This document shows, piece after piece, positions 4,451-35,510 of a DNA stretch of 64,000 bases. A model generated the notes under the pieces. That model saw only the letters and a program-made list of their open reading frames with translations, was not told the DNA's origin and did not search any database. Each line of letters opens with the position of its first letter. The stretch's first letter is position 1. This DNA is from Balanoglossus misakiensis (Eukaryota; Animalia; Hemichordata). The position numbers and the translations under genes were made by a program. The stretch spans positions 7,459,919-7,523,918 of the forward strand of contig CM082584.2 in the NCBI GenBank assembly GCA_040954595.2. The letters are read 5' to 3'.

Positions 4451-4481
4451 GTTGTTGATCGAATGTCGAGTGTGATGTGTA

Positions 4482-4511
4482 CCCGCCAAGAAACGTTTGT
4501 TATTTCCCGCC
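4482..4511. promoter_or_regulatory. Two E2F-type sites just upstream of the ZNF367 start codon
   Basis: TTTCCCGC at 4503-4510 and CCCGCCAA (TTGGCGGG on minus) at 4482-4489. Motif match only. Confidence 0.5.
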
Positions 4512-14074: not shown

Positions 14075-16321
14075 TCAATTGCTGGTCAGTGCAGCCAGCA
14101 ATCTTCGTTTCCCCGTGAAACCGAGCCGGGAGTGTTGAACGAGCATGTTGTCGAAGACAATGACGTCATTCTTCTGCATCTGGAAGCCGATGGAGACCTG
14201 CCAGATGACGTCACGCATGTGCTGGATGACGTCAGGTTCGATCTCGGCGCCGTCGCCGTAGGTCGTGTGATACGGGTAGCGCTTGTAGGGGCGATGTTTA
14301 TCATTGGCGGCGAACATTGGATGTTCTGTAAGGGTTGTGGCGTGGTGAACTGCCGCCTGGTTAAACCACAGCTCCTCGCCTATGGATGAGGTCAAAGGGA
14401 ATAAAATGGTTAAAAATTTTGCCAAATTGATGTGACTTTCAGTTTCGGTCTACCCTGCAGATGGTGAAAAACAATGGATTTGTAGCCCATATTTAGCAGT
14501 GTGCAAACTGCAGGTGGGATCACGTCATGTTACTTGCTGGAAGGTGCCGGGTTAAATAGAGTGTACTCACCTGTTGTGTGATGTTTGTGAAAGGCTGGCA
14601 GAACAAGTGAAAACGACAGTGACCCATCGTCGTGCCATTCAAAGCTATAACCCACTTTCTTCATGAACTTTTCCACCTCATTTCTGTCATTTGTCAAAAA
14701 TGTCTGTAGGTGAAAAAAGTACGAGGCAACATTTGAAAAATGATATTTTAATTAGAGAGATACATTTGATATCACTCCTGTGAAAATACAGATCATACCT
14801 AGCTGAAAACCAGTGTTCAAAGATACATTTTGATTGTAGAAAGAGAAAGAGAGAGGACTGTCTTGTCCAAACTGCGCGAAAGGTTTTTCACATGGAAAGA
14901 TGTCATCTGTGAGGATAGTGTTTCGTACATAAAGTGGGTGGTGGTAAAATATAACTGGAATGTACCTCTTGCCAACTTTTGTAGTCGCTCTTTTCCTTCG
15001 ATGGATAATAATTGTGGTACATCACTCCCCGCTTTCTGAACTTCTCAACAACCTTCGGGTCGAGATTTGAAAGAACTTCTCTCACCCCGGTGAGGCCGGT
15101 CTCTCCACCACAGCCAGGCTCTGGCGCGATGTCACAGTAGAAAAACAACTGTTAAAAGAACATCAAAACTGATATGAGTAAAACAAAAGACCTCTTTTAA
15201 TTGGCCGCATATGGGCGCTGTGGCATTAACGACCGATCTTCGTAATGTTCTGAGGGAACGTGTCGCGACCTGTTCCGCATTTTTTTTCTCAAGATGAAGA
15301 CAGCACCGGGTGAAGTGCGTGCAATTTCGATGTTTTTTATTTGTGCTGTATAGAGCGGCTTGTATTTTCTCATGATTCGAGCCCAGGCACACGCATGCGC
15401 ACAAAACTACATACACGCATACAAGTTAACAATGCCCCAAAGAAAGTCCTTGTCCTTTTATTCGTCCACTCTCACACTCGTGACTGCACGGCCACTGTTT
15501 GGAATGACCACGGCGAAAGGTCAACATATGAGCTCTTATTTACATTCAACTTTATTGTTGTTTCAAATTCTTGCAAAACAAGTGTCCCTTCAAGAATCAA
15601 AACAATAAAAGGCATATTTAAAGTCATAATTTTATACTAGTAACACATTGCCACCATGCAGGTGATGAGTTGAAAAAATGTGTCCAATTTCCAACAAAGC
15701 GTTGAACATTGCAGGTGGTGTTCATCACCCCCAAACAGCTACGGGTCTCACTATCCTAAACTAAATTAAAAGTTCCTTTACCTTGAGTGGGTAGACTTTC
15801 ATATATGACATTTCGTTGTGAGGTGGGATGGTGTAAGCGGGTACATCATCACTGGCCGTCAACACGCCTGTAGCTACTTTCTGGCGCACGGCGTTACCAC
15901 CTTCGTATCCCATTGTGGAGTAACCGAGACTCAGAATGAATTCCGAAAAACCTTCCACACCATGCACAGGCATTCCCCTGAACATGATGACCCCATACTC
16001 AACGAGTTTCTTCTCGATGATGTCTCGAACGGCCTTCGCCCATTCTGCAGCAGACCCAATATCTCCATTTTCCGCCTCGTAGAGCGCTGGAAAATTTGGC
16101 TTCGGGGATGCTATGAATTCAGGGAACTTGTTGTCAGGATTCAAGGCGCCTGGCACCCATTCGCGACCAGCGAGTCGAGCTGACCAGTCCGGGGGCACGT
16201 CCAACTTTTCCCGGTGAATGAACGATGGCTGCGCGTAGGCACTCGCAGCCTGCGAGAAATGTTTCAAGTTGCATCGTTGAAAAAACACCGGACGTGGCAA
16301 AACTCGAACTACTAGGAACAT
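14075..16321 (-). CDS. TauD/TfdA-family 2OG-Fe(II) dioxygenase (SyrP/DdaC-like), copy 1; exons 16321-15782, 15148-14966, 14703-14571, 14379-14075; 386 aa
   Basis: YGVIMFRG, PHNEMSY (His-x-Glu), [25 protein letters not shown] (distal His plus 2OG-binding Arg). GT-AG introns, open frame. Confidence 0.9.
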
Positions 16322-16931
16322 TTTCCGTCTGGTGTCTGGATGGACGTGTGATACCAGCGTGAATTGGCAAGGACCTGTTTTACACATCGACACGGGACTT
16401 TTAAACCGGTGACCTTCATAGCAAACAATGTCAGGTCACTCTGATCTCGTTCGCAGATTCTACCTGTCGTAGTTTGAAAGCGAACTCGAAATACTGGGAA
16501 CACTTGGCCGTGTCCTCCCTTGATGCAAAGTTAAAAATGGCGAATTTGATCAAAGCAGCTGCGTTCGGGGTAGGGTGGACTTGTCAGTGAGGGCTCCGAT
16601 GTCAGAGGTCTCTCTGAGCTCAGAGGTCATCTATAATATTAAGGTCATACCTCTCAACCTCAAAAGCAGACGTTCAGTCATTCAAGCAACGTACATTTAC
16701 GCGCTAAAAGGAAAAGAGACCTTAGTATCTTTTTATAGCGTCGCGCAGCCAGTAGTGCTGGGGAATGGGGCAGGGGACCAGAATACTGCTTTACAATGCA
16801 GGATTTCAAACCGACCAACCACCTTTGCCAACCAATTTCCATTGCACCACTCTCGTTATCTTCTCCATTCAGCATCTCCTGCAACTCATCGCTTTCTTTG
16901 TAAAGATATGTTAGTCGCATATATGTCACCC

Positions 16932-16997
16932 TAGCCCGGAGACACAGGCGTCGATCTAGTATTCCTTTTCCCCTACTACGCCTGTGTCTCCGGGCTA
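16932..16997. mobile_element. 66-bp miniature inverted-repeat element with 9-bp target-site duplication
   Basis: Perfect 20-bp inverted repeats TAGCCCGGAGACACAGGCGT / ACGCCTGTGTCTCCGGGCTA, flanked by ATGTCACCC on both sides. Absent from the paralogous block near 23311-23330. Confidence 0.88.
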
Positions 16998-17319
16998 ATG
17001 TCACCCCAAGCTCATCAACTTGCCAATCGTTTCAGAAAAAGGGTTGTAACAGTGTTATTTCATATTTCTATATTATAGAGAGTGATACATGACTGCAGGT
17101 TTTTTAATCTGAAATACACGCGGAATAAAATTCTCCAAAAGGCAACCCATACAATTCAGTAATTAATACTAAACCATACCCTGTATGTACCACGCAAGAA
17201 AGTGTCGGGTGAAGCTGCACTTGCTTGGGCTACTTGGCATTTCTCTTCATTTAGCTGTACTCTCAAGTGTCTGAACCCATCATTCTCAATACAGGGTATA
17301 CATTAAAAACAAAGATATT

Positions 17320-19244
17320 TCAATTGCTGGTCAGTGCAGCCAGCAATTTTCGTTTCCCAGTGAAACCGAGTCGGGAGTGTTGAACGAGCATGTTGTCGTA
17401 GACAATGACGTCGTTCTTCTGCAACTGGAAACCAACTGAGACCTGCCACGTCACATCGCGTATGTGCTGGATGACTTCAGGTTCAACCTCTGTGCCGTCG
17501 CCGTATAATGAGTGGAACGGGTAGCGCTTGTAGGGGCGATTGTCTTTGTCACTGGCGAACGTGGGATGTTCTGTAAGGGTTGTGGCGTGGTGATCGGCCA
17601 CGTGGTTAAACCACAGTTCCTCACCTAGATGAGATCATAGGGAAATCAATGAAATGACCCACATAACCAATGCTTGAGTTTTCCCATTGGAACTCTAACA
17701 TGGCCAGAACAGTCAGTGGTTCAAAGCATTCATTTATTCGTTCGTTCGTTCGTTCGTTCCTTCATTCATTCATTCATTCATTCATTCATTCATTCATTCA
17801 TTCATTCATTCATTCATTCATTCATTCATTCATTCATTCATTCATTCATTCATTCATTCATTCACAGTTCCTATCATTTTCAGTTTACTCTGCAGATGGT
17901 GAAACAAATGAATTTGTGGCCCATATTAAGCAGTGTGCAAACTGCAGGTGAGATCACGTCATGTGACTTACTCGAAGGTGCCGGGTTAAATAGAGTGTAC
18001 TCACCTGTTGTGTGATGCTTCTGAAACACTGGCAGAACGTGTGAATATGACAACGCCCCATCGTCATGCCACTCAAAGCTATAACCCAGTTTCTTCAAGT
18101 GCTTTTCCACATCACTTCTGTCCTTTGTGAAAAATGTCTGTCGGTGCATAAACACGAGGAAGATTTTGTATTTGGAAACTTGCAGTTAGTATCACGTGCC
18201 AAACGCAATGTATTTTATTTATCATATGCCAACATAAAAAAAGCCGTGTCCCTGTGGTATAAGAGAAGACTGTCGTGTCCAAACTGCGTGAAAAGTTCAG
18301 TTTTTCAGATGAAAATATATTATATAGTAAGTGATGGCAAAACTAACTAGAACGTACCTCTTGCCAACTTCTGTAATCACTCTTTTCCGTTGATGGATAA
18401 AAACTGTGGTACATCACTCCGACTTTTCGGAACTTCTCAACAACTTTTGGGTCGAGATTTGGAAGAACGTCTTTTACCCTGGTGAGGCCGGTCTCTCCAC
18501 CACAGCCAAGCTGGGGTGCGATGTCACAGTAGAAAAACAACTGCCAAAAATCAAGATCAAAAACGGATAATTCCGATAGTTGAAATTTGTGCTACATAAC
18601 GCGACTCGAATTTCCAACAAAGCTTTGAGGTCGGAAAATGATACGCGTTATTCATCACCTCCCCCCCCCCCCCTCCCCTAAATAGATACGCGCCTTACCT
18701 TAAGTGGGTAGACTTTCGAATATGACATTTCATTGTGAGGTTGGATGGTGTATGCGGGTAAATCATCACTTGCAGTAAACACTCCTTTAGCTAGTTTTTG
18801 TCGCACGGCGACCCCACCTTCGTATCCCATTGTGGAGTAACCGAGACTCAACAGGAATTCTGAAAACCCTTCCACACCATACACAGGCATTCCCCTAAAC
18901 AAGATGACCCCATACTCGACGAGCTTATTTTCGATGATTTCTCGAGCGGCCTTCGCCCATTCTGCAGCACACCCAACATCTCCATTTTCCGCCTCGTAGA
19001 GCGCTGGAAAATTTGGCTTCGGGGGTGCTATGAATTCAGGGTACTTGTTCTCGGGATTCGAGGCCCCTGGCACCCATTCGCGACCAGCGAGTCGAGCTGA
19101 CCAGTCCGGGGGAACGTCCAACTTTTCCCGCTGAATGAACGATGGCTGCCCGTGTGAAGCTCTTGCAACTCGAGAGAAAAGTTTGATGTTGCATCGCCGG
19201 GTAACCTCCACCGTTCGTGGCAAAACTCTGAGTACCGAAAACAT
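17320..19244 (-). CDS. TauD-family dioxygenase copy 2; exons 19244-18699, 18540-18358, 18137-18005, 17624-17320; 388 aa
   Basis: Same motifs ([17 protein letters not shown]) and the same 183/133-nt internal exons as copy 1; frame intact. Confidence 0.9.
17727..17864. repeat. (TCGT)n(TCAT)n microsatellite in intron 3 of dioxygenase copy 2
   Basis: Direct reading of the tetranucleotide run. Confidence 0.95.
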
Positions 19245-19460
19245 TTTCTGTTTGTCGACTGACCTTGTTCTTACGTCCTTGAAACGACGAGATTATTCTT
19301 CTTCCGCATAAATAAGATGAATATAAAGCAGGCACCCCATACGTACTACGTACTACGCTCTATTTAGGGACCGTTCAGTTTTTACGGCCGGGGGGCGGCG
19401 GCAAAATCCAGGGGGGGGGGGGTCACTTAAATCACAGACAAAGAGCTTAAATGGTGAAGT

Positions 19461-19657
19461 CCATTCTGCCGTAGACCCAACATCTCCATTTTCTGCCTCG
19501 TAGAGCGCTAGAAAATTTGGCTTCGGGGGTGCTATGAATTCAGGGTACTTGTTGTCAGGATTCAAGGCGCCTGGCACCCATTCTCGACCAGCGAGTCGAG
19601 CTGACCAGTCCGGGGGCACGTCCAACTTTTCCCGTTGAATGAACGATGGCTGCGCGT
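19461..19657 (-). pseudogene. Truncated exon-1 relic of an eighth dioxygenase copy
   Basis: Encodes [17 protein letters not shown]...GDVGSTAEW, then similarity stops. No presequence, no HNE motif, no downstream exons. Upstream 19818-19930 matches the copy-1 upstream region (~16599-16698). Confidence 0.85.
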
Positions 19658-20071
19658 TCTCACGTTCTGTCGATCGTTCAACTGGAACGGCTGATGCTGG
19701 TAACAATTTTCGCTGCTGTCTGGAAGCTAGCATTGACGTTATCTGCATGCACAATGTGTACTTTAAACAGGCCTAGTGACCTCTAGTGACCTTTCATGAT
19801 ACAGCCTGTGAGGTCTGCGATGTCAGAGCTGAGCTCAGAGGTCATCTAAGGTCATGTAGAGCTCTCTAAGGTTTCAATACCTCTCAACCTCAAAAGCAGA
19901 CGTTCAGTCATTCAAGCAATGTACATTTTACACGTTATAAGTTAAATCTTGCATAAAAACACCCATCCGATATAAATACAAACGAGAAATATTGTGTTTG
20001 ACGATATGTATTTGAGAAAAATACAAGGACGTCAGTTTAATGGTATGAATCCAATTCAGTAAGTTTGGAAC

Positions 20072-20314
20072 AGGCCACTTTCATGACCTTACATCCTTGT
20101 ACTTCCGTTGATATAGGGTTGTCAAAATTCAAGGTTTTGGTACATGTTATGTATACAATATTGCTTAAGAAAAGTTTCCTTGGTAATTCGGTACGTAATT
20201 CATTGACTACAGATGCAATTGTAGAGTTTTCGTAGAGTTTTTCATTAGACTGATGGATTCATTCTAACGGAAGTACGAGGATGTAAGGTCATGAGCGGGT
20301 CATGAAAATGGCCT
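20072..20314. mobile_element. ~245-bp MITE-like foldback element
   Basis: AGGCCACTTTCATGACCTTACATCCTTGTACTTCCGTT is inverted relative to AACGGAAGTACGAGGATGTAAGGTCATGA...CATGAAAATGGCCT. Confidence 0.7.
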
Positions 20315-20570
20315 AGTTCGCTTAACAAATGCGCCTAGAAAAATGCAACGTGTGTTAATTATATTGGCATGTTTTGACTAATGTTGTTAAAATAAGTGAT
20401 TTTTACTGTCTGCTAAGCAATACAAAATATACATAGAAACAGAAGTTGCTTCGGTAACTTTGTATGACTCCATTGTTTTTCTCTACTGTCAACCAAATGT
20501 CTGGGTCTAAGTACTAAGTACATTTTTTTGTATTCCCTATTCTCGTTACAACGTGGACACAAAAAGACAT

Positions 20571-22551
20571 TCAAGTGCTGGTCAATGCAGCCAGCAATTT
20601 TCGTTCCCCAGTGAAACCGAGCCGGGAGTGTTGAACGAGCATGTTGTCGAAGACAATGACGTCCCTCTTCTGCAACTGAAAACCAACCGACGCCTGCCAC
20701 AACACGTCGCGTATGTGCTGGATGACGTCAGGTTCGATCTCGGCGCCGTCGCCGTATGACGAGTGATACGGGTAGCGCTTGTAGGGGCGGTGTTTGTCGC
20801 TGGCGAACGAGGGATGTTCTCTGAGGGCCGTGGCGTGATGAAGTGTGGTGTGGTTAAACCATAACTCCTCGCCTGGAAGAGAGGGGAAAACGGAATGAAA
20901 TGTTTCACAAGCTTGTCAAATTGATTTGACTCATCCAACCAACGCTTGGGCTTTACAGTACAGGCAGTATATAAATCCCTCACACTCACAAGTTTCATTC
21001 ATTCATTCATTCATTCATTCATTCATTCATTCATTCATTCATTCATTCATTCATTCATTCATTCATTCATTCATTCACTCACTCACTCACTCACTCACTC
21101 ACTCACTCACTCACTCACTCACTCACTCACTCACTCACTCACTCACTCACTCACTCACTCACTCACTCACTCGTTCGCTCAGTCTGTGTGAAATCTGCAG
21201 TTGAATGATAGATCACTTCATATTACGTGCTGTTAAATAGAAAGATAGACGCACTAACCTGTTTTGTGATGTTTGTGAAACGCTGGCAGTAGGTGTGAAT
21301 ACGAAAGTGCCCCATCGTCGTGCCACTCAAAGTTATAATTCAGTCTCCTCATGTACTTCTCCACCTCACTTCTGTCGTCAGTGACAAATGCCTGTTGGTG
21401 CATAAATATGAAGCAGAGTGTAACAAATGTTATTTGAACGATATTTTAATTTGGAAGTTTGCATCAGAGGTATAACGCATTGATCTCATTCCTGTGAGAA
21501 AACATTTGAAAGCAAATTATTTCCGTTAATTTGAACGCAGATGGAAAAGACCAGCGTATGAAGTGCGTATGAAGTGCGTATGAAGTGCGTGGCGGGGAAA
21601 AAATAACTAGAAAGACACATCTGGACTTACCGCTTGCCAACTTTTGAAGTCACTCTTTTCCTGTGACGGAAGAAAGTTGTAGTACATCACTCCGAGTTTT
21701 CTGAACTTCTCAACAACCTTGGGGTCGAGATTTGGAAGAATGTCTTTCACCCTTGTGATGCCAGTCTCTCCACCACAGCCAGGCTGGGGTGCGATGTCAC
21801 AGTAGAAAAACACCTGCAATGTAAACATCAGAAGCCTATTAGCAAAATTGCCTATACTACAGTTTGAATTTATGGAAACGATCTAGCTTTGTTACTGCAA
21901 GTAAAAAACACCCACTTTAAAAGACCGTATCTGATTGTAACGCACGTGGACAACAGTTATTTTTTATCTTGAATGGGTAGTAATTCAAATACGACATTTA
22001 CTATTTACTACGGGTCCTACCTTAAAAGGGTAGACTTTCGAATATGACATTTCGTTGTGGGGTTGGATGGTGTATACGGCTGGTTCATCGCTGGCAGTGA
22101 ACACGCCTGTAGCTACTTTCTGTCGAACGCCAAGCCCACCTATGTATCCCATTGGAGAGTAACCAAGACTCAGTAAGAATTCTGAAAACCCTTCCCCACC
22201 ATCCACAGGCATCCCCCTAAACATGATGACCCCATACTCAACGAGCTTGTCTTCGATGATTTCCCGAGCTGCCTTCGCCCACTCTGCCGTAGACCCAACA
22301 TCTCCACTTTCCGCCTCGTAGAGCGCTGGAAAGTTTGGCTTCGGGGGTGCTATGAATTCAGGGAACTTGTTGTCAGGATTCGAAGCGCCTGGCACCCATT
22401 CGCGACCAGCGAGTCGAGCTGACCAGTCCGGTGGCACGTCCAACTTTTCCCGCTGAATGAACGAAGCTCTTGCAACTCGAGAGAAAAGTTTGATGTTGCA
22501 TCGCCGGGTAACCTCCACCGTTCGTGGCAAAACTCTGAGTACAGAGAACAT
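20571..22551 (-). CDS. TauD-family dioxygenase copy 3; exons 22551-22021, 21813-21631, 21391-21259, 20872-20571; 382 aa
   Basis: [21 protein letters not shown]; ends LTST-stop; consistent splice phases. Confidence 0.9.
20994..21172. repeat. Compound (TCAT)n(TCAC)n microsatellite in intron 3 of copy 3
   Basis: Direct reading. Confidence 0.95.
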
Positions 22552-23052
22552 TTTCTGTTTGTCGACTGACCTTGTTCTTACGTCCTTGAAACGACGAGGT
22601 TATTCTTCTTCCGCATGGATAACATGAATATAAAGCAGGCACCCCATACGTACGTAATACGCTCTATTTACATGATTTAAGTCATCACGATACATCACAT
22701 GTACCAACTATTGTCTCCTGCCAGTTGCAGTACGGTACTTTGTGAACTAGTCACGTCGCCGTAAAAATAATGTCGGTAGCCCATGAGTACATATATGCGA
22801 ATAAATCGACGCGAGGGGCCTGGGCCTACTTTCTACTTGTATTGTTATCAATAGGTACGTAACTTTAGAGCTGAACATTACAATCGGCGAAACACCCACA
22901 GCTGTGAATACTGTACAGCCTGATGAGTATTATACCTATTCGCCGCAACAGTGCTGCCAGCTTAGCTTTCGAGGAGATATTCTGGACCCTACAAAATTTC
23001 ATAGAGTGATATTTTGGGGCCAGCCTATACCATGTACTCCAACTGTTTTATT

Positions 23053-23184
23053 TAGTCTGGTCCCCTGCCCCATTCCTGTCGATGGCTGCGCCACGCCAAG
23101 CGCGCTAAAAGGAAAGAGACCCCTAGTATCCTTTTAGCGTCGCGCAGCCAGTAGTGCTGGGTAATGGGGCAGGGGACCAGAATA
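23053..23184. mobile_element. ~130-bp TAG-ended foldback element/MITE
   Basis: TAGTCTGGTCCCCTGCCCCATT / AATGGGGCAGGGGACCAGAATA (1 mismatch), an inner inverted pair TGGCTGCGCCACGC / GCGTCGCGCAGCCA, and CTGTTTTA repeated on both flanks. Confidence 0.75.
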
Positions 23185-23771
23185 CTGTTTTACAATGCAG
23201 GATTTCAAACCGACCAACCACCTTTGCCAAACAATTTCCATTGTCTCGTTATCTTCTCCATTCAGCATCTCCTGCAACTCATCGCTTTCTTTGTAAAGAT
23301 ATGTCAGTCGCACATGTATCACCCCAAGCTCATCAACTTGCCAATCGTTCCAGAAAAAGGGTTGTAACAGTGTTATTTCATATTGTATTATAGAGAGTGA
23401 TACATGTCTGCAGTTATTTTAATCTGAAATACACGCGGAATAATACTATACCATACCAATTCATGTTAAGAATTCAATGACAGCAAACATACAATCCGGA
23501 GATATTCGCTCAAGTAGTCTTCAGTCCAATCAATTTAAAGTCTCGGCTCTTCTGTTGTGTAACTTAAGTTATCTATGATGATCGTTATATTGCACGTGTA
23601 CCCTGTGTGTATCATCATGCAAGAAAGTGTCGCCGAAGCCCTCATGTAAGTGCTGCACTTACTTGGGTTACTTGGCATTTCTCAATGATTTACCTGTACT
23701 CTCAAGTGTCTGGATGTATGAACCTATCTTTCTCAATACAGGGTATATAGTACATTAAAACCAAAATTTTT

Positions 23772-25767
23772 TCAATTGCTGGTCAGTGCAGCCAGCAATT
23801 TTCGTTTCCCAGTGAAACCGAGTCGGGAGTGTTGAACGAGCATGTTGTCGTAGACAATGACGTCGTTCTTCTGCAACTGGAAACCAGCTGAGACCTGCCA
23901 CGTCACATCGCGTATGTGCTGGATGACTTCAAGTTCAACCTCTGTGCCGTCGCCGTATAATGAGTGGAACGGGTAGCGCTTGTAAGGGCGGTGTTTGTCA
24001 CTGGCGGCGAACATTGGATGTTCTGCAAGGGATGTGGCGTGGTGCTCTGTCACTTGGGTAAACCACAGCTCCTCACCTAGATGAGATCAAATGGAAATCA
24101 GTGAAAGGACCCACATAACCAATGCTTGAGTTTTCCCATTCAAACTCTAACATGGCCAGAAGTCAGTGGTTCTAAGCATTCATTTATTCGTTCGTTCGTT
24201 CGTTCGTCATCCATCCATCCATCCATCCATCCATCCATCCATCCATCCATCCATCCATCCATCCATCCATCCATCCATCTCCATCCATTCATTCATTCAT
24301 TCATTCATTCATTCATTCATTCATTCATTCATTCATTCATTCATTCATTCATTCATTCATTCATTCATTCATTCATTCATTTAGCAGTGTGTAAACTGCA
24401 TTTTTTTTAAATTCAGGTGAGATCACGTCATGTGACTTGCTGGAAGGTGCCGGGTTAAATAGAGTGTATATACTCACCTGTTGTGTGATGTTTGTGAAAC
24501 ACTGGCAGAACAAGTGTATACGACAACGCCCCATCGTCATGCCACTCAAAGCTATAACCCAGTTTCTTCAAGTGCTTTTCCACATCACTTCTGTCATTTG
24601 TGAAAAATGTCTGTCGGTGCATAAACACGAGGAAGATTTTGGATTTGGAAATTTGCATCAGATGTATAATGCATTAAGGTTCTGCGCAGGCGTGAGTTAG
24701 TATCACATGCCAAACGAAATGTATTTTATTTATCATATTCCAACAGGAAAGCGCCGGATTGTCATCTTTTTTTGGCCATTTTTGTGTCCCTGTGGTATAA
24801 GAGAAGATTGTCGTGTCCAAACTGCGTGAAAAGTGCAGTTTTTCAGATGGAAATATATATAATAGGAAGAGATGGCAAAACTAACTAGAACGTACCTCTT
24901 GCCAACTTCTATAATCACTCTTTTCCGTTGAAGGATAAAAATTGTGATACATGACTCCGAGTCTTCTGAACTTCTCAACTACCTTCGGGTCGAGATTTGG
25001 AAGAATGTCTTTTACCCTGGTGAGGCCGGTCTCTCCGCCACAGCCAGGCTCTGGCGCGATGTCACAGTAGAAAAACAACTGCCAAAAACAACATCAAAAA
25101 CGGATGAAGAGCGTATAATTCCGAGGGTTGAAATTAGTGCTACATAACGCGACAAAGCTTCGAGGTCAGACAATCTAGGCGTTGTTCATCACCCCCCCCC
25201 CCTCCCCTAAATAGATACGCGCCTTACCTTAAGTGGATAGACTTTCGAATACGACATTTCGTTGTGAGGTGGGATGGTGTATGCGGGTAAATCGTCACTT
25301 GCAGTAAACACTCCTCTAGCTAATTTTTGTCTCACGGAGATCCCACCTTCGTATCCCATTGTGGAGTAACCGAGATTCAGGATGAATTCCGAAAAACCTT
25401 CCACACCATGCACAGACATTCCCCTGAACAAGATGACCCCATACTCAACGAGCTTGTTTTCGATGATTTCTCGAGCGGCCTTCGCCCACTCTGCCGTAGA
25501 CCCAACACCTCCATTTTCTGCCTCGTAGAGCGCTGGAAAATTTGGCTTAGGGGGTGCTATGAATTCAGGGTACTTGTTCTCGGGATTCAGGGCGCCTGGC
25601 ACCCATTCGCGACCAGCGAGTCGAGCTGCCCAGTCCGGGGGAACGTCCAACTTTTCCCGCTGAATGAACGATGGCTGCGCGTAGGCATTCGCAACCTGCG
25701 AGAAAAGTTTCCCGTTGCATCGTTGGAAAACCACCAAACGTGGCAGAACTCGAAGTACCGAGAACAT
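23772..25767 (-). CDS. TauD-family dioxygenase copy 4; exons 25767-25228, 25078-24896, 24610-24478, 24076-23772; 386 aa
   Basis: [21 protein letters not shown]; frame intact. Confidence 0.9.
24177..24381. repeat. Compound (TCGT)n(TCCA)n(TCAT)n microsatellite in intron 3 of copy 4
   Basis: Direct reading. Confidence 0.95.
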
Positions 25768-26384: not shown

Positions 26385-26424
26385 TAATTAATTAATTAAT
26401 TAATTAATTAATTAATTAATTAAT
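26385..26424. repeat. (TTAA)n self-complementary microsatellite
   Basis: About 10 units of TAAT/TTAA. Confidence 0.9.
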
Positions 26425-26984
26425 GGACATTAATGTAATTTTGCGGTTATGTTCTGAAATGCGTTGACGTTCGACAACAACATTTCACCTTTAAACCCCT
26501 ATATGAGTAAGGTTGTTCATCCATATGGATAAGTTTTGTACTCGCAATTAGATAAAAAATAGTCCCTTTCTGAAAGTGGATTAAAACGAAAACGCCTCTC
26601 TCTTTTTTAAAATCCCCTTCGCCATCACGATCAATTTAAATATAACATTCATATATCAGAAAATGTTGTTGCCCCCAACATTAAACTGGTATTTCTCGGT
26701 CTTTTATGCAAATGAGAAAACGCAGTCCCTATCTACGGTGTAATTTGAATTCATAAAACCTCACGTCTATAGTGAGATATGGTGATAAATATTAATGAAA
26801 AACCAAGTTCAGAGATAATGTTTGCAACTGCTTTCTACCACCGGTTTTTCTGTTGAAAATTTCCGTTGAGTCACTGTAAGATCACATAGGAATGGAAACA
26901 ACAGAAAAGTTTCATTTTTATGATAAATTGGACGATTGAAACAAAAGCTCTACACGTCACAATGTGTACATTTAGATGATGTTT

Positions 26985-29224
26985 TCAATTGCTAGTCAGT
27001 GCAGCCAGCAATTTTCGTTCCCCAGTGAAACCGAGCCGGGAGTGTTGAACGAGCATGTTGTCGTAGACGATGACGTCCCTCTTCTGCAACTGAAAACCAA
27101 CCGACACCTGCCAGATGACGTCACGCATGTGCTGGATGACGTCAGGTTCGATCTCGCTGCCATCGCCGTATGTCGTGTGATACGGGTAGCGCTTGGATGG
27201 GCGATGTTTATCATTGGCGAATATAGGATGTTCTGCAAGAGATGTGGCGTGGTGCTCTGTCACTTGGGTAAACCAAAGTTCCTCGCCTAGAAGAGAACAA
27301 GGGGGTGAAATAGTTAACAATATAAGTTCAGCTTCTGAACTCCCCTTTGCCAGACACGGTAGAAATCGGCCATCTTGAAATTATCGGCCATCTTGAAATT
27401 ATGTCGACCACATGAGATCACTCACCTAGGTATCAAATACCCATTTTTTAAATGGAGTGCACCCACCTGTTGTGTGATGTTTGTGGAACACTGGCAGTAC
27501 AAGTGAAAACGACAGAGCCCCATCGTCATGCCATTCAAAGCTATAACCCACTTTCTTCAAGTGCTTTTCCACATCACTTCTGTCGTTTGTGAAAAATGTC
27601 TGTCGGCGTGTGAACAGGAGGGAAACTTTAGAAAATGATATTTAAATTTGGACATTTGCACAAAAGTTATGCATTCAATCTCGTTCCTATAGGAATACAG
27701 GTGATACTAAGCTGAAAACCTGTTTTGAAAGACACAAAATTTTGATTGTAGATAAATAGAAGACTGTCGTGTCCAAACTGTATGAAAGGTGCAGATTTTC
27801 AGATGGGACGACATCATCTGAGAGGAAAGTGCATAGTACGTGATCATGTGTAGTGGTTGAATGTACCTCTTGCCAACATTTGTAGTCACTCATTCCCCGT
27901 GATGGATAAAAACTGTGGTACATCACTCCGACTTTTCTGAACTTCTCAACAACCTTCGGGTCGAGATTTGGAAGAACGTCTTTCACCCTAGTGAGGCCAG
28001 TCTCTCCACCACAGCCAGGCTGTGGCGCGATGTCGCAGTAGAACAACAACTGTCGAAAACAATATGAAAAGCACGATAGCATATTATTGGACAGGCAATG
28101 TAACTTTGTAAACGCCAGCTAAGTAAACAGCAGATCTAGATGATTATGTCTGTTTTATGCTCTGATTTATGTATTTCTTCAGGTTAAAGTAAAGATTGCT
28201 TCGAATGACTACTAATTTTGACATGTGTAAAACAAAATACATTTGAATGGGTCGCATTTTTATGGAGATATATACATAACAATGCAATCATGCACAATAT
28301 GTTTAGGCAAGAGTCAGTGTGGTCTTTGTCTTCTGATCTCTATAAATCGTGACAGCGCGGTCACTGATTGGAGTGACAGGCCTCGAGGTCAGAAGATATT
28401 AAGCATTAGGCCTACACGTAAGGTTTCTGTTGACAAGTTAGATAACTGTCCACTCAAGAATAGACCCATTTAGGGCTATAATTTACGTCACACTTCAAAC
28501 ATGCGGGTGAGTTGAGCAAATTCTGTAAGAAATTCAACAAAGCTTTGTGGTGAGATGATCAAGGCTGGGGTTTAACTGTCAACTGATTGCGTAAGCAACA
28601 GGGGTGTTGGCGGAGATCGCACCACAGTCCCTCTAATTTCCCCTTGCCCGATCCCCTCATAATTAATAAAACACCTTGTACCTTGAGAGGGTAGACTTTC
28701 GAATATGACATTTCGTTGTGGGGTTCGATGGTGACCTCGGGTAAATCATCACTCGCAGTGTATACGCCTCTAGCTACTTTCAGTCGCACGGCGGTCCCAC
28801 CTTCGTATCCCATGGAAGCGTAGCCGAGATTCAGGATGAATTCTGAAAAACCTTCCCCACCATACACAGGCATTCCTCTGAACAAGATAGCCCCATACTC
28901 AACGAGCTTATTTTCGATGATGTCTCGACCAGCCTTCGCCCACTCTGCCGTAGACCCAACATCTCCATTTTCTGCCTCGTAGAGCGCTGGAAAGTTTGGC
29001 CTCGGGGGTGCTATGAATTCAGGGTACTTGTTCACGGTATTCAAGGCCCCCGGTACATATTTACGACCAGCGAGTCGAGCCGCCCAGTCCGGGGGCACGC
29101 CCAACTTTTCCCGATGAATGAACGAAGGTTGCGCGTAAGCACATGCAGCTCGCGAGAAAAGCTTAACGTTGCTTCGTTGGACAGCCGCCAGCGAGCGTGG
29201 CAAAACCCGAAGTGGCGAGAACAT
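26985..29224 (-). CDS. TauD-family dioxygenase copy 5; exons 29224-28682, 28049-27867, 27599-27467, 27286-26985; 386 aa
   Basis: [25 protein letters not shown]; frame intact. Confidence 0.9.
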
Positions 29225-30117
29225 CGTTACGCCGACTGTGTTCTCACTTCAGTGACCCAATGCGGCAATTCTACTTCCGCATGAACAACATGAGAGACAC
29301 CAAGGTCGACTCATTGTCAATATAGGCTTCACCGCTAGCTGCAATCTGTGACCTTTAACATGCTTTGGTGGGCTGGTTAGTTGGCTGGGTCGTGCGGCTA
29401 GCGCTTGTGCATTGTATTATAGTATGATTATGCCATGCTGAAGGTCAGAGATTCATGTACAGAATTTTGAGATGATTCTACCATATGTACAAAAAGGACG
29501 ACACACGCCACAATTACCTAAGAATATGTTGTAAAAAAGTAGTGAACAACCATAGGGTTATTAGACATGGCCAATAATTGCAAGAAAACCGTTAGAACAT
29601 TACTGATATATCCACGCTAAAGTTCCACATATACAGAAACATATATGCGTGTTGTTGTTTTTTTTCTTGTCTTTCACATAAATGTATATTTATCCCAAAA
29701 TAGTCACGGTTCCAATCGTGTTAATTTAAATGATATTTATTTTATCAATTTCTGAAGTCGTAGACGTCAAAGTTTCTACAATAGAATCGTGCACTTGCAT
29801 TTCCTTTGTTAACTTTGCAAATTTATGTGATTCACGATTCTGTTTCGGTAATTGTTAAAATGGATAATCTTCCAGTCTTATCTTATCAACGGACACCGAA
29901 AATGGCTCATCTTGAAGTGAGATGCCAAGTTTTTCTTTCACCCGAAAGGCAGAACATAGCTCTTGGAAGATCAAATACAAATAGGGATGGGAACAAGAGA
30001 CAAAATGTAGTACATTTTACCAATTGCAGGAATGAAACCAAAGTTCTAAACGTCGCAATTAAATGTGGACACTTTGGTGATGTTCAAAAAACTACCAATT
30101 CCTGGTCATTGCTACAC

Positions 30118-31951
30118 TCAATTGCTTGTCATTGCAGCCAGCAATTTTCGTTCCCCAGTGAAACCGAGCCGGGAGTGTTGAACGAGCATGTTGTCGTAGA
30201 CGACGAGGTCTCTCTTCTGCAACTGAAAACCGACCGACACCTGCCAGATGACGTCGCGAATGTGCTGGATGACGTCAGGTTCGATCTCGGCGCCGTCGCC
30301 GTATAATGAGTGATACGGGTAGCGCTTGTAGGGGCGATGTTTGTCACTGGCAAACTTGGAATGTTGTGCGAGGGTTGTGGCGTGGTGAACTGTCGCGTGG
30401 TTAAACCACAGCTCCTCGCCTGAAAGAGCGCAAGGGGAATGAAATTAATTTTTATGCGACATATTTTTATTAGAAAAGTAAATTTAGATTTCCCGGTAGC
30501 TATAAACCTTTAGACTTTGCGACCGCAGTCAGTTTTAGAATGTATACATTCACAGATGACAATTTTACAATTCGTCCCCTTTCCTCACTACACTACTTTT
30601 CGGGTACCGTACTCACCTGTTGTGTGATGCTTCTGAAACACTGGCAGAACGTGTGAATATGACAACGCCCCATCGTCATGCCACTCAAAGCTATAACCCA
30701 GTTTCTTCAAGTGCTTTTCAACCTCACTTCTGTCATCAGTGAAAAATGTCTGTCGGTGCATAAATTTGACAAGACAAATTTTGAAAATGTCATAATTTGC
30801 ATCAGGGGTTTACTACATTTATCTATTGTCTGTCGAAGTTACAAAACGGGCAAAGCCTTAACAACCATGCAACGTTTCCCCGGAAAAGCGGAGATGACTA
30901 ACGGCTAAAAATGTCGGTCGAAAACTACCATTCTGTGAGGGTTGTTCTGTGGTTGACATTGGCCATTATCTGTAGAAAAGATTGCGTGGGAGATTGGTAT
31001 AGAGTACATACAAGTGAGTGATAATAAAACAACTGTGCGTTTTACAAACGTGGACTAACCTCTTGCCAGCTTCTGTAATCACTCTTTTCCGTTGATGGAT
31101 AAAAGTTATGGTACATCACTCCGAGTCTTCTGAACTTCTCAACAACCTTCGGGTCGAGATTTGGAAGAATGTCTTTAACCCTGGTGAGGCCGGTCTCTCC
31201 ACCACAGCCAGGCTGGGGTGCGATGTCACAGTAGAAAAACAACTGCCAAAAACATTATTAAAAACGGATGAAGAGCGTATAATTCCGATAGTTGAAATTT
31301 GTGCTACATAACGCGACTCGAATTTCCAACAAAGCTTTGAGGTCGGAAAATGATACGCGTTATTCATCACCTCCCCCCCCCCCTCCCCTAAATAGATACG
31401 CGCCTTACCTTAAGTGGGTAGACTTTCGAATATGACATTTCATTGTGAGGTGGGATGGTGTATGCGGGTAAATCATCACTTGCAGTAAACACTCCTCTCG
31501 CTAATTTTTGTCGCACGGCGATCCCACCTTCGTATCCCATTGTGGAGTAACCGAGACTCAGAATGAATTCCGAAAAACCTTCCACACCATGCACAGGCAT
31601 TCCCCTGAACATGATGACCCCATACTCAACGAGTTTCTTCTCGATGATGTCTCGTGCGGCCTTCGCCCATTCTGCAGCAGACCCAAGATCGCCATTTTCT
31701 GCCTCGTAGAGCGCTGGAAAATTTGTCTTAGGGGGTGCTATGAATTCAGGGTACTTGTTGTCAGGATTCAAGGCGCCTGGCACCCATTCGCGACCAGCGA
31801 GTCGAGCTGACCAGTCCGGGGGAACGTCCAACTTTTCCCGCTGAATGAACGATGGCTGCGCGTAGGCACTCGCAGCTTGCGAGAACAGTTTCAATTTGCA
31901 TCGTTGGAAAAGCACCAACGATCGTGGAAAAGATGTAAGTCCTCGGAACAT
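30118..31951 (-). CDS. TauD-family dioxygenase copy 6; exons 31951-31409, 31242-31060, 30749-30617, 30419-30118; 386 aa
   Basis: [21 protein letters not shown]; ends AMTSN-stop; frame intact. Confidence 0.9.
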
Positions 31952-32998
31952 TTCCGTTGGTTGACTGGGTACCGTTCTTTACTTCAGCCTGAGTGACACA
32001 GAGTAAAATGTTCTTGATTCACATGCGCAGCACTGTTGCTGACAGTATAAAATAAGAATCCGTTGAGAGATAAATTCTATATTTATGGGATCAATATGTT
32101 TCAACCAGTGCTGTCCGCTCGGCGATCGCTTATTTTGACTTCAAGCCGCAAATAATGCCGGTACATGTATATCCCCCCTGTATTCTTTTGGTGCATGGGG
32201 TAGGGCTAGCTACAATCATTGCAGCTTTTGATGAAATCAAATTGGCCAATACAGCAGAAATGACGAATATCCATAATCTCGTCAAATATGCAACTATGTA
32301 CATGTTTATAGGACACTGCTCGTGATGTACACAAGAATACAGAGGTTCGCGGAATCTCTTCAAGACGATAGCAAGTTTTGGAGGATTGAAATTCATCACC
32401 TTTTATGTTGTCTTTTTTTTGTGAAGTAGCGTCAAAATGCAAAGTCCATCAACGTCTCTTCTTTGATACAGTACACTTCTAGCTCTCGAGAGAATAACAA
32501 TGGAAACTCGAGTCGTCATCTATGTCATTACTATCACATCCTGAAGAAATTCTTTTGTTCATAGGTAATATCGCTTTAATTTCCAGACCCATCTCAACAC
32601 CAGCCTTAATAGTATGATGCCTCATAAGGTCATTGACCATGCATTGATATGATGACAATACCTTACATAATGCTATAATGAGACGCCGCCCTCACCGCCA
32701 AATCATTGACCGAAGAAAAGGTGAAAACAGGAAAGAAATCCTTAATAACTTAATAGAAATGCAAACCTCCTACATTTTTTTTCTTTAAATTCCAGGACGG
32801 TCATGAAATATCAAGATTTGGTCAAGAGCTTTGATCATGAATGTAGGCGTTGCGTGACCCTTGATGTGACCTTAAAGCGCCTCCAACGTGGATTTAAGTA
32901 AATGTTTATGTCCAGAAAGTAGTCATTGCGTCACTGTCACTGTAGGAAGAACACTGCCTGGTAGCTGCTGTCTGTCCCAGGCGGCAAACCTGCAGAAA

Positions 32999-35510
32999 AT
33001 GTTCGCGGTAGTTCGAGTCTTGCCACGTTCGGTGGTTTTCCAACGATGCAACTTGAAACTGTACTCGCAGGCTGCGAGTGCCTACGCGCAGCCATCGTTC
33101 ATTCAGCGGGAAAAGTTGGACGTGCCCCCGGACTGGTCAGCTCGACTCGCTGGTCGCGAATGGGTGCCAGGCGCCCTGAATCCCGAGAACAAGTACCCTG
33201 AATTCATAGCACCACCTAAGCCAAATTTTCCAGCGCTCTACGAGGCGGAAAATGGTGATGTTGGGTCTGTTGCAGAATGGGCGAAGGCCGCTCGAGAAAT
33301 CATCGAGGAAAAGCTCGTCGAGTATGGGGTCATCATGTTCAGGGGAATGCCTGTGGATGGTGGGCAAGGGTTTTCAGATTTTCTCGTTAGTCTCGGCTAC
33401 TCTACCATGGGGTACGAAGGCGGGCTAGCCGTTCGACAGAAAGTGGCGACAGGCGTGTTGACGGCCAGTGATGATCTGCCCGAGGTCACCATCCAACCGC
33501 ACAATGAAATGGCGTATTCGGAAGACTACCCTCTCAAGGTGAGTCTATCGAGTATGTGTTTGTATCTGTCTGATTTCTGTCACTCCACAGGCAGACAGCT
33601 ACAGCACCAATGCCAAAAGGGGCAGTGGTCAGAATACTTGTATTTGCACATATTCAATCCCCAAGAAACCTGCACGGTTAGGAAACAACGCCACGTGCGA
33701 ACAGTTTCCGGGTCCATGTTTACTTCGGGCTTCTCAAGGTCACCCTGACAATGTTTTCACGTCATTCATAAAAGTCCTACACTCTGTGCACTAACTGTGG
33801 TGTGCTTAAAAGGAGTGATTTCTTTAACATTTTATAATTTTCACGTTGAATTGTCCTGTGAATGTAGTCTCTCATGCAATAGGGCAACTAAAACATGTAT
33901 ACAACTGCGTATTTACGCCCTGATGCGAGAAAATAACATGTTTGCAACTGACTCTGCAACTGGTGGGTGTATCCGGTTTTAGCCAGCTAACACCTTGGCT
34001 GGGTTCCATGAATGTACATTTGATTGGCAGCGTTCCTGAATGGCGTCATTGCGAGAGTTGAAGGACATCTGAGAAGAAAGTAGTGCACCAGTAGCAAACT
34101 ACCCAAATTTAATTACGTTCTGGTTTAACACAGAAAATAAATGTTACTGATTAGTGGCAATTTTTTATGGATTTTTTTGTGTGATGTAATGTCACGTTTC
34201 CATCCAGGTCAAAGGTCACCAAGAGACTTATTTCAAAACACACAAACAGTTCTCCAAGGTTTTGCATCTTGTTTGTATCGAACATTGTATGTTAATTTCC
34301 TTTCTCCGTACAATACCGTGTTTGTTCGTTATTTTCTGATACATCACATGATAAGGTTGTGACCTGTTCAATAATGCTGTCCTATTAACTGGGGTAAACA
34401 GATATTTAGCTCCAGTGGTGTGCCAATGGGAGTTTCACTTGGTGTACACACAAGTATGTCTGTACGTGTATGTCCATCCGTTTCGTAGAAAATAAGAACT
34501 ACGTTTCACACTGCTGTTTGGTTTGTAGAAACTGCATAGTATTTTTTGTTCAAATAAAGTAGTCACAGCTACCAAAATTCTGCAAACAAGTTGAATTGTC
34601 CATGAAGAACTTTATATGAGATTGCTTAACATGTTACTGATGTTCAATTTACAGTTGTTTTTCTACTGTGACATCGCACCCCAGCCTGGCTGTGGTGGAG
34701 AGACTGGCCTCACCAAGGTGAAAGACATTCTTCCAAATCTCAACCCGAATGTAGTTGAGAAGTTCAGAAAACTTGGAGTGATGTACAACATGTTTCTTCC
34801 GTCAAAGGAAAAGAGTCAGTACAAAAGTTGGCAAGAAGTAAGTAATTTAATTTGCCATTGTTTATACCCCATGACACATACTATTGTTCCAATTAGAATA
34901 TCAGTAAAATAACATTTTTCAAAATCTGCCAACAGACATTTTTCACTGACGACAGAAGCGAGGTGGAGAAGTACATGAAGAGACTGAATTATAACTTTGA
35001 GTGGTACGACGATGGGGCACTGTCGTATTCACACGTACTGCCTGTGTTTCACAAACATCACACAACAGGTGAGTACTGGTGGACTGGTGCACTCTCCCAG
35101 TAAGTAATCCTCGTTCTGGCCATCTCGTATCTGGTGGTGGTGGTGGTGGGGGAGGTCTACAGTCAAACTCAATTGTGACACTATTCCATTCCCTTTGCGC
35201 TCTTCCAGGGGAGGAGCTGTGGTTCACCCACGTGACGCGCCACCACGCCACGAACCTCTCCGAACATCCCAAGTACGCCAGCGACAAACACCGCCCCTAC
35301 AAGCGCTACCCGTATCACACGACATACGGCGACGGCGCCGAGATCGAACCCGAGGTCATCCAGCACATTCGCGACGTCATCTGGCAGGTCTCCATCGGCT
35401 TCCAGATGCAGAAGAGAGATCTCATCGTCTACGACAACATGCTCGTTCAGCACTCCCGGCTGGGTTTCACCGGGAAACGAAAACTGCTGGCTGCAATGAC
35501 CAGCAATTGA
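32999..35510 (+). CDS. TauD-family dioxygenase copy 7 (inverted); exons 32999-33538, 34655-34837, 34936-35068, 35209-35510; 385 aa
   Basis: [21 protein letters not shown]; same intron positions as copies 1-6. Confidence 0.9.

What the first reader, a model, noticed from the sequence alone, without database searches (positions are those of the whole stretch)
14075..35510. Seven-gene animal array of SyrP/DdaC-like 2OG-Fe(II) dioxygenases: candidate undescribed metabolite-tailoring system
Seen: seven intact, intron-containing paralogues (382-388 aa) plus a relic, between SERBP1 and EIF2B2. All keep the His-x-Glu...His iron triad (HNEM...DNMLVQHSR). Known: this HNE/WFNQ/GGET signature typifies the SyrP/DdaC/clavaminate-synthase-like branch of the TauD/TfdA family, which oxidises amino-acid or peptide natural-product precursors in bacteria. 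The familiar animal members BBOX1 and TMLHE use His-x-Asp and have an extra N-terminal domain, which I do not see here. The carboxylate ligand is kept, so hydroxylase/desaturase/epoxidase chemistry is more likely than SyrB2-type halogenation (His-x-Ala/Gly). Inference: a lineage-specific expansion serving an uncharacterised biosynthetic or detoxification pathway.
Basis: partly seen in the sequence, partly recalled or inferred. Interest (0 to 1): 0.85.

Follow-up and report, generated by a model that had tools for sequence, protein, structure and literature searches.

The report
Acorn worm osmolyte-hydroxylase gene array
Seven intact, diverging copies of an iron-enzyme gene sit side by side in what is likely an acorn worm, and because their bacterial relatives lie in gene clusters resembling one that oxidises a marine sulfonium osmolyte, they likely hydroxylate small free charged acids, probably inside mitochondria.

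Summary
The array is real: seven intact four-exon genes (382-388 aa, 76-89% identical, dN/dS 0.18-0.39, diverged introns) plus a 65-codon relic. The host is likely a ptychoderid acorn worm (G7 is 86% identical to a Ptychodera flava protein). All seven form one clade with a single P. flava sister, so the expansion is recent. The family is not worm-specific: it occurs in hemichordates, amphioxus, nemerteans, cnidarians and protists, and RefSeq labels it 'DdaC-like'. Trees place it apart from both the DdaC/NRPS group and the At3g21360/sulfoquinovose-dioxygenase group (SH-aLRT 98-99; AU only borderline, p about 0.047). It groups with bacterial enzymes in clusters built like the Burkholderia bur locus, whose BurC hydroxylates free gonyol, a sulfonium acid. 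That identification rests on gene context, not on the BurC sequence. Best reading: mitochondrial Fe/2OG hydroxylases of free small acids, likely betaine- or sulfonium-type osmolytes, with copies diverging at inferred pocket sites (Arg296 to Glu, Asp, Val or Leu). Substrate and expression are untested, and the array's subfamily lacks two pocket residues that the BurC-like enzymes keep.

The parts
14075..16321 (-). G1, 386 aa; exons 16321-15782, 15148-14966, 14703-14571, 14379-14075; pocket 143=N, 296=V, 301=T
17320..19244 (-). G2, 388 aa; exons 19244-18699, 18540-18358, 18137-18005, 17624-17320; pocket 143=V, 296=D, 301=T; its 5' end is shared with G3 (chimeric)
   Evidence: first 90 nt 97% identical to G3, rest of exon 1 92% to G6
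19461..19655 (-). Relic: 65 codons of exon 1, no other exons
20571..22551 (-). G3, 382 aa; exons 22551-22021, 21813-21631, 21391-21259, 20872-20571; loop reads YIGGLGVR; 296=L, 301=A
23772..25767 (-). G4, 386 aa; exons 25767-25228, 25078-24896, 24610-24478, 24076-23772; pocket 143=I, 296=E, 301=S
26985..29224 (-). G5, 386 aa; exons 29224-28682, 28049-27867, 27599-27467, 27286-26985; pocket 143=T, 296=E, 301=S
30118..31951 (-). G6, 386 aa; exons 31951-31409, 31242-31060, 30749-30617, 30419-30118; pocket 143=I, 296=V, 301=T
32999..35510 (+). G7, 385 aa; exons 32999-33538, 34655-34837, 34936-35068, 35209-35510; the conservative copy, head-to-head with G6; pocket 143=L, 296=R, 301=N as in orthologues
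   Evidence: 86.5% identical to P. flava XP_070563858
32999..33088 (+). N-terminal leader of G7 (present in all seven), predicted mitochondrial presequence
   Evidence: 4-7 basic and 0-1 acidic residues in the first 30; K-x-F/Y-S motif; residues 1-26 of the orthologue model have pLDDT under 50; no dedicated predictor was run

Best explanation
A recent tandem expansion of one gene encodes seven Fe(II)/2-oxoglutarate dioxygenases that are predicted to enter mitochondria and likely hydroxylate free small acids at the carbon next to the acid group, most likely zwitterionic betaine- or sulfonium-type osmolytes. Shown: the genes, the metal triad, purifying selection, the clade and the gene context of the bacterial members. 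Inferred steps: (1) the basic leader is cleaved on import; (2) His168/Glu170/His367 bind iron, and Arg146 and Arg376 bind 2-oxoglutarate; (3) the acid group sits in a neutral nest formed by backbone amides after Gly141-Gly142 and at Met171, as the sulfonate does in SqoD; (4) Fe(IV)=O hydroxylates the adjacent carbon, as SqoD does on sulfoquinovose and BurC on gonyol, opening the compound to further breakdown; (5) G7 keeps the ancestral job, while G1-G6, descended from an inverted duplicate, drifted at the sites that face the substrate's tail (Arg296 to Asp or Glu in G2, G4, G5; to Val or Leu in G1, G3, G6) and would accept different compounds.
For: Clade of array + marine invertebrates + protists + bur-type bacteria: FastTree 0.98 (171 rows), SH-aLRT 98 (76 rows) and 99 under a mixture model (46 rows). 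Of 21 bacterial loci in the subgroup, 20 have a PKS, 19 a class-III aminotransferase, 14 a KARI, 13 a PLP decarboxylase, 7 a SET protein and 7 an aldehyde dehydrogenase within the DNA fetched (queries came from three of these loci, so self-hits count). L002 has the order PKS, SET, TauD, aminotransferase, aldehyde dehydrogenase, reductase-domain protein. The PKSs of L016, L019 and L020 have two thioesterase stretches, one N-terminal, plus A, KS, AT and KR domains, as described for BurA (PMC9428774). BurB, D, E and I make DMSP (PMC7496086), and purified BurC converts free S-gonyol to the alpha-hydroxy product gonydiol (PMC9359912). A sister member (L028) sits among two Rieske oxygenases whose best match is glycine betaine monooxygenase, a sarcosine-oxidase-like protein and a hydroxyproline-dehydratase-like enolase, all below the curated cut-offs. 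G7 scores 193-236 bits against bur-type proteins, 148 against DdaC and 137 against At3g21360. The SqoD nest positions Tyr85, Gly-Gly, Arg92 and Met118 are kept in 7 of 7. Positions mapped from the SqoD paper vary more among the copies than the rest (1.0 against 0.45 extra states per site, permutation p=0.0002); among orthologue-invariant sites, 14 of 28 changed against 49 of 183 (Fisher p=0.025).
Against: No substrate was tested, and the BurC sequence itself was never obtained; the link is by gene context only (the supplement search for burC gave 0 hits). Identity to the bur-type proteins is only 33-38%. AU tests against grouping the animals with DdaC/NRPS or with SqoD are borderline (p=0.047 and 0.046, 24 rows, groups named after seeing trees). 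The array's subfamily differs from the bur-type enzymes at two inferred pocket sites: Glu296 and Tyr301 in 10 of 10 bur-type rows, against Arg296 in G7 and 4 of 4 orthologues and a non-aromatic 301 in 11 of 11, so gonyol itself is not a safe prediction for G7. The highest-scoring bacterial relatives (Entotheonella, 253-276 bits) lie beside methyltransferases and a 2-hydroxyacid dehydrogenase, with no bur-type genes. Pocket positions were mapped by alignment, not from coordinates, and loops vary more anyway. The best 10-residue window of change was not significant (p=0.077), and position 296 was noticed after the fact. Mitochondrial targeting rests on composition and a recalled cleavage motif. 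Expression of these seven copies is not shown.
Confidence: 0.45

Rival explanations
1. They are sulfonate dioxygenases: they hydroxylate the carbon bearing a sulfonate (taurine, isethionate, cysteinolic acid or similar) and release sulfite, as SqoD and TauD do.
For: The only characterised enzyme among the strong PDB sequence hits is SqoD (9YUT, E 6e-27), and its backbone-amide nest is kept. Cnidarian larvae express TauD-domain genes in aboral cells and taurine inhibits settlement; the authors propose taurine as substrate but state that there is no direct evidence (PMC12225738). Arg296 in G7 and its orthologues could bind an anion.
Against: SqoD Gln120 and Trp253 are not kept: Tyr173 in 7 of 7 and a non-aromatic 301, against Gln and Trp in 7 of 7 rows of the At3g21360/mollusc clade. 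That clade is separate (100 support). MaSqoD does not act on taurine. Whether the aboral cnidarian genes belong to this clade could not be confirmed.
Confidence: 0.22
2. They tailor a worm-specific secondary metabolite, for example by hydroxylating, desaturating or epoxidising a precursor of a chemical defence, possibly carrier-bound as with DdaC.
For: Most bacterial members of the clade are biosynthetic. The array is a recent expansion with changes concentrated at inferred pocket sites. Acorn worms make halogenated defence compounds (recalled, no call).
Against: DdaC and the NRPS-fused domains fall outside the clade. No PKS, NRPS or carrier gene was seen in the 64 kb window; the flanks are housekeeping genes. 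The family is shared with corals, amphioxus and protists, which points to common marine chemistry. The whole genome was not available to look for partners.
Confidence: 0.18
3. The seven copies do the same job; the array is dosage plus ordinary birth-and-death turnover, and the pocket differences are relaxed drift.
For: A relic, a chimeric copy (G2) and mosaic exon affinities show unequal crossing-over. No pair has dN/dS above 0.39. Other hemichordates also hold several paralogues of the wider family.
Against: Sites invariant in G7 and three orthologues from other acorn-worm genera changed about twice as often at mapped pocket positions (14 of 28 against 49 of 183). Codon 296 encodes five different residues and codon 143 five among seven copies.
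Confidence: 0.15

Closest known systems
BurC-type gonyol hydroxylase of bur-like clusters (BurC of Burkholderia thailandensis, PMC9359912); represented here by L002, L016-L020 and related loci
   Same: Same clade; same Y-x-G-G-x-x-x-R loop and HNEM-x-Y motif; 33-38% identity; stand-alone enzyme; BurC acts on a free acid.
   Different: Bacterial and part of a PKS cluster, without a leader. Glu296, Leu297 and Tyr301 in 10 of 10 rows; the array has His297, a variable 296 and no aromatic at 301. Identification with BurC is by gene context only.
Sulfoquinovose dioxygenase SqoD (9YUT) and the At3g21360 clade, which includes mollusc genes
   Same: Best structural match (1y0z, Z 33.1, rmsd 2.2 A over 305 residues); HxE...H triad; Gly-Gly loop and Met nest.
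   Different: Separate clade; Gln120 and Trp253 are not kept; no basic leader in At3g21360 or the Babylonia protein.
DdaC (Pantoea dapdiamide cluster, L003) and SyrP-like or NRPS-fused TauD domains
   Same: Same subfamily of TauD/TfdA with an HxE triad; 32% identity; source of the RefSeq label 'DdaC-like'.
   Different: Different clade; the DdaC subgroup has Arg where the array has Gly142; these work with carrier proteins (recalled). SyrP itself was not fetched.
RefSeq 'dapdiamide synthesis protein DdaC-like' proteins of hemichordates, amphioxus, nemerteans and cnidarians
   Same: Direct orthologues and paralogues (XP_070563858, XP_077997442, NP_001171788); a coral member was detected by proteomics in settling larvae (PMC12960093).
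   Different: The array's subfamily returned 1 protein in P. flava, 1 close one in Glandiceps and 2 in Saccoglossus, against 7 here (word-limited search, so lower bounds).
BBOX1 and TMLHE (carnitine pathway)
   Same: Same fold (BBOX1 Z 16.1); animal Fe/2OG hydroxylases of free quaternary-ammonium acids; TMLHE is mitochondrial (recalled). The best functional analogy in animals.
   Different: No N-terminal GBBH domain, Glu instead of Asp in the triad, 12% structural identity, scores far below the family cut-offs.

Membership tests
TauD/TfdA (PF02668) Fe/2OG dioxygenases | Pfam score above the gathering cut-off | tested here: met
   Orthologue P0001 100.5 bits; single exons 24.6-49.1 bits against a cut-off of 27, 3 of 5 above it
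TauD/TfdA (PF02668) Fe/2OG dioxygenases | 2-His-1-carboxylate triad and C-terminal Arg | tested here: met
   H168, E170, H367, R376 in 7 of 7
TauD/TfdA (PF02668) Fe/2OG dioxygenases | Iron- and 2-oxoglutarate-dependent turnover | not testable with these tools
   needs recombinant enzyme
BurC-type onium-acid hydroxylases | Same clade as TauD genes of bur-like clusters | tested here: met
   SH-aLRT 98 and 99; the array is in the wider clade, not inside the bur-type subgroup; AU against alternatives borderline
BurC-type onium-acid hydroxylases | Pocket residues Glu296 and Tyr301 shared by the bur-type rows | tested here: not met
   Glu296 in 2 of 7 (Asp in 1 more), Tyr301 in 0 of 7
BurC-type onium-acid hydroxylases | Neighbouring DMSP/gonyol biosynthesis genes | tested here: not met
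   none seen among the window's ORFs; flanks are SERBP1-type and eIF2B-type genes; rest of genome not available
BurC-type onium-acid hydroxylases | Hydroxylation of gonyol | not testable with these tools
   needs an assay
SqoD / At3g21360 clade | HHEMAQ motif (Gln120) and Trp253 | tested here: not met
   Tyr173 in 7 of 7; T/A/S/N at 301
SqoD / At3g21360 clade | Gly-Gly loop and Met backbone nest | tested here: met
   G141, G142, R146, M171 in 7 of 7
DdaC / SyrP carrier-dependent oxygenases | Groups with DdaC in a tree | tested here: not met
   constrained grouping 25.6 log-likelihood units worse, p-AU 0.047
DdaC / SyrP carrier-dependent oxygenases | Carrier-protein or NRPS partner in the genome | tested here: inconclusive
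   none seen in the window; no whole genome held
BBOX1 / TMLHE | N-terminal GBBH-like domain, HxD triad, family cut-off | tested here: not met
   only PF02668 found; TIGR02410 22.3 bits against 268.3 for P0001; Glu170
Mitochondrial matrix proteins | Cleavable basic amphipathic presequence | tested here: inconclusive
   composition and motif fit in 7 of 7; no dedicated predictor or localisation

The most novel reading that the evidence does not exclude
Marine invertebrates carry their own mitochondrial homologues of a bacterial gonyol hydroxylase and so oxidise algal sulfonium or ammonium osmolytes themselves, which makes animals direct actors in marine organosulfur turnover. This sediment-feeding worm has multiplied the gene and flipped the charge of its pocket to cover several osmolytes. 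The unexplained 'TauD' marker of cnidarian apical organs may be the same family acting on a betaine-type cue rather than on taurine.
Probability: 0.25. Interest if true: 0.75.

Novelty: new variant of a known kind. Interest (0 to 1): 0.5.

Why it matters
The family is auto-labelled 'DdaC-like' or 'taurine dioxygenase' across marine invertebrates with no tested function in the papers I could search. Its placement beside bur-type enzymes replaces an open-ended substrate search with a short panel (gonyol, DMSP, dimethylsulfonioacetate, betaines, sulfonates). The array offers seven natural pocket variants on one scaffold, including a charge reversal. A tandem array in an acorn worm is not surprising by itself; the value lies in the testable functional lead for an orphan animal enzyme family.

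Tried and rejected
No whole genome is held, so a partner search and a copy count outside the window were not possible. No RNA holder was listed for G7, which says nothing about expression. The supplement search for the burC gene or locus tag gave 0 hits, and a plasmid search with a bur-type protein returned only the two records already held. The hemichordate genome paper has no passage on taurine or clavaminate in its main text and 0 hits in 2 supplements. I could not place the aboral Pocillopora TauD (XP_027047514) in the tree: its sequence was not in the supplements that I could read, one supplement was unreadable, and figure S4 of PMC12225738 is not held. Foldseek's top list did not show 9YUT; that link comes from the sequence search. 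The careful bootstrap tree did not finish; the quick mixture-model tree was used. A sliding-window test for a hotspot of change was not significant (p=0.077). My pattern search for the second thioesterase serine of BurA-like proteins did not find it, although Pfam reports two thioesterase stretches. Two look-ups of earlier findings returned nothing. Rejected: assembly artefact (diverged introns and silent sites); halogenase (Glu kept in 7 of 7); sulfoquinovose dioxygenase proper (Gln120 and Trp253 not kept); secreted protein (no strongly hydrophobic N-terminal stretch).
Full report
Observation. A script built seven complete four-exon genes between 14075 and 35510: six on the minus strand (G1-G6) and one on the plus strand (G7), of 382-388 aa and 76-89% pairwise identity. 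All 21 introns are GT..AG at identical positions. A 65-codon relic of exon 1 lies at 19461-19655. The copies are not assembly echoes: dS is 0.18-0.51 and dN/dS 0.18-0.39 in 21 of 21 pairs, median 0.26, and median intron identities are 0.26-0.55. G2 is chimeric: its first 90 coding bases are 97% identical to G3 while the rest of exon 1 is closest to G6. The flanks carry a SERBP1-type domain and IF-2B-family exons. The motif WFNQ is literal in only 1 of 7 copies.

Host and age. The best hit is Ptychodera flava XP_070563858, 'DdaC-like', 86.5% identical to G7 and 75-78% to G1-G6. Glandiceps and Saccoglossus orthologues follow, so the host is likely a ptychoderid acorn worm. The seven copies form one clade (SH-aLRT 97) with that P. 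flava protein as sister (99), and G7 is sister to G1-G6 (98). This fits an inverted duplication of G7 followed by tandem growth. The word-limited search returned one protein of this subfamily from P. flava, one close one from Glandiceps and two from Saccoglossus (lower bounds). The wider family occurs in amphioxus, the nemertean Lineus, sea anemones, corals, Hydractinia and the dinoflagellate Oxyrrhis, with Atlas clusters dominated by Cnidaria, Chordata and Haptophyta. It is an old marine-eukaryote family, already annotated by similarity.

Which branch. By sequence, the solved relatives are At3g21360 (E 1.5e-35) and 9YUT (E 6e-27); clavaminate synthase is far weaker. 9YUT is the sulfoquinovose dioxygenase MaSqoD (PMC12951627; I read parts 1-3 of 4 and passages). 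A model of the P. flava orthologue (mean pLDDT 91.6) matches At3g21360 at Z 33.1, TauD at 18.0 and BBOX1 at 16.1. I fetched the DdaC gene from the Pantoea dapdiamide cluster, identified by its neighbours, and At3g21360 with its mollusc relatives. Three trees give the same three groups: the At3g21360/mollusc group, the DdaC/NRPS-associated group, and a third clade holding the array, its eukaryote relatives and some bacteria. Support is 0.98 (171 rows), 98 (76 rows) and 99 (46 rows, mixture model, quick search). Rows were subsampled from 358 aligned domains, with near-duplicates and most plant and NRPS rows left out, and BBOX1, TMLHE and SyrP were not in the trees. Forcing the animals with either other group costs about 26 log-likelihood units, but AU p is only 0.047 and 0.046. 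BBOX1/TMLHE membership fails on domain content and cut-offs.

What the bacterial members do. A scan of GTDB genomes gave 95 relatives among 98 matches, of which 80 were kept. Nineteen loci (L004-L022) plus two plasmid loci form a subgroup; ten of them were placed in the tree, where they group at 99. Of these 21, 20 have a PKS, 19 a class-III aminotransferase, 14 a KARI, 13 a PLP decarboxylase, 7 a SET protein and 7 an aldehyde dehydrogenase nearby (self-hits included; Pfam names). L002 reads PKS, SET, TauD, aminotransferase, aldehyde dehydrogenase, reductase-domain protein. This is the gene set of the Burkholderia bur locus. There BurB (SET), BurI, BurD and BurE make DMSP (PMC7496086, part 1 of 3 read), BurA with its two unusual thioesterases makes and releases gonyol (PMC9428774, passages), BurC hydroxylates free S-gonyol at the alpha carbon, and the KARI BurG follows (PMC9359912, passages). 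I did not obtain the BurC sequence, so 'BurC-type' is an inference from context. Two sister proteins (L026, L028) are followed by a class II aldolase, and L028 lies among genes whose best, sub-threshold matches are betaine and sarcosine oxidation enzymes. The highest-scoring bacterial relatives, from Entotheonella, have no bur-type neighbours; one lies beside methyltransferases and a 2-hydroxyacid dehydrogenase.

Pocket and leader. SqoD binds its anion through backbone amides after a Gly-Gly loop and at Met118, plus Gln120, and binds the sugar with Trp253. The array keeps Tyr139, Gly141, Gly142, Arg146 and Met171 in 7 of 7 but not the Gln or Trp. SqoD and BurC both hydroxylate the carbon next to the acid group, so I infer the same regiochemistry here. 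Against a simple gonyol assignment, 10 of 10 bur-type rows have Glu296 and Tyr301, while G7 and 4 of 4 orthologues have Arg296 and Asn301; G1-G6 have Val, Asp, Leu, Glu, Glu, Val at 296. The 34 positions mapped from the SqoD paper vary more among the copies than the other 316 (1.0 against 0.45 extra states, permutation p=0.0002). Among orthologue-invariant sites, 14 of 28 changed against 49 of 183 (p=0.025). Loops are freer to vary, the mapping is by alignment, and the window test was not significant (p=0.077), so this is suggestive only. All seven begin with about 30 residues holding 4-7 basic and 0-1 acidic residues and a K-x-F/Y-S motif (R-Q-Y-S in two orthologues). At3g21360, DdaC, the Babylonia protein and L002 have 2-5 acidic residues there. 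I read this as a mitochondrial presequence (motif recalled; no predictor run).

Mechanism and rivals. Most likely (0.45): mitochondrial hydroxylation of free small acids next to the acid group, with betaine- or sulfonium-type osmolytes as the likeliest class, G7 holding the ancestral job and the other copies broadening the range. Rivals: sulfonate cleavage (0.22), tailoring of a worm-specific metabolite (0.18), and redundant dosage copies (0.15). The sulfonate rival has a literature thread. TauD-domain genes mark the aboral cells of cnidarian larvae (PMC4300403 and PMC10781443, passages); they are not BBOX1/TMLHE orthologues, have no demonstrated substrate, and in Clytia are co-expressed with a betaine/GABA-transporter-like gene (PMC12225738 and its preprint, passages and supplement rows). 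A coral 'DdaC-like' protein enriched in settling larvae shows this clade's motifs by eye (PMC12960093, passages and supplement row), but I could not confirm that the aboral genes belong here; figure S4 and one unreadable supplement bear on this.

Novelty. Searches of the held library found 'DdaC-like' in 1 paper, 'gonyol' with 'BurC' in 3, 'gonydiol' in 6, 'hemichordate' with 'taurine catabolism dioxygenase' in 3 and 'At3g21360' in 14. In the listings and passages seen, none links BurC to animal proteins or assays an animal member; subscription journals are largely outside this library. The enzyme type is known and tandem arrays are ordinary, so this is a new variant of a known kind, not a new system.

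Noticed in passing
proteins P0069, P0251-P0300; not in the window: Molluscs (snails, limpets, mussels, oysters, clams, sea hares) carry genes of the At3g21360 clade. The rows aligned (3 molluscs, At3g21360, Selaginella, Galdieria, one unnamed) keep the SqoD substrate residues Gln120 and Trp253 in 7 of 7. Algae-eating molluscs and plants may have their own sulfoquinovose dioxygenase; this deserves its own look.
   Followed up: partly
L023-L025, L027: Proteins from Candidatus Entotheonella and the cyanobacterium Okeania score higher against the worm proteins than most bacterial relatives and fall among eukaryote rows in one tree but unresolved in another; transfer between animals and associated bacteria is possible but not shown.
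   Followed up: partly
L004-L015, L022: Actinobacterial and Nitrospirillum clusters combine the BurC-like gene with KARI, aminotransferase, PLP decarboxylase, an FAD oxidoreductase, an inositol-monophosphatase-family gene and an ATP-grasp ligase: bur-like chemistry on other scaffolds.
   Followed up: partly
L026:9836-11618, L028:9740-11752: Two marine proteobacterial members are directly followed by a class II aldolase gene, suggesting hydroxylation followed by C-C cleavage in a catabolic route.
   Followed up: partly
window 16700-16931 and 23101-23324: A 230-base non-coding element, 92% identical between two intergenic spacers of the array.
   Followed up: no
window 17727-17864, 20995-21172, 24177-24381: CATT/TCAC microsatellites of 34-51 units in intron 3 of G2, G3 and G4, possible sites of unequal exchange.
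   Followed up: no
window 37747-38266: Tandem repeat of a 187-base unit, 2.8 copies, between G7 and the eIF2B gene.
   Followed up: no
window 31952-32998: G6 and G7 are head-to-head about 1 kb apart and may share a bidirectional promoter.
   Followed up: no
window 2800-4510 (-), 42560-46400 (+), 52176-52979 (-): Other genes: a C2H2 zinc-finger gene, a prolyl-tRNA-synthetase-like gene (anticodon-binding domain hit; name recalled) head-to-head with the eIF2B gene, and a single-exon Tctex-1 domain gene.
   Followed up: partly
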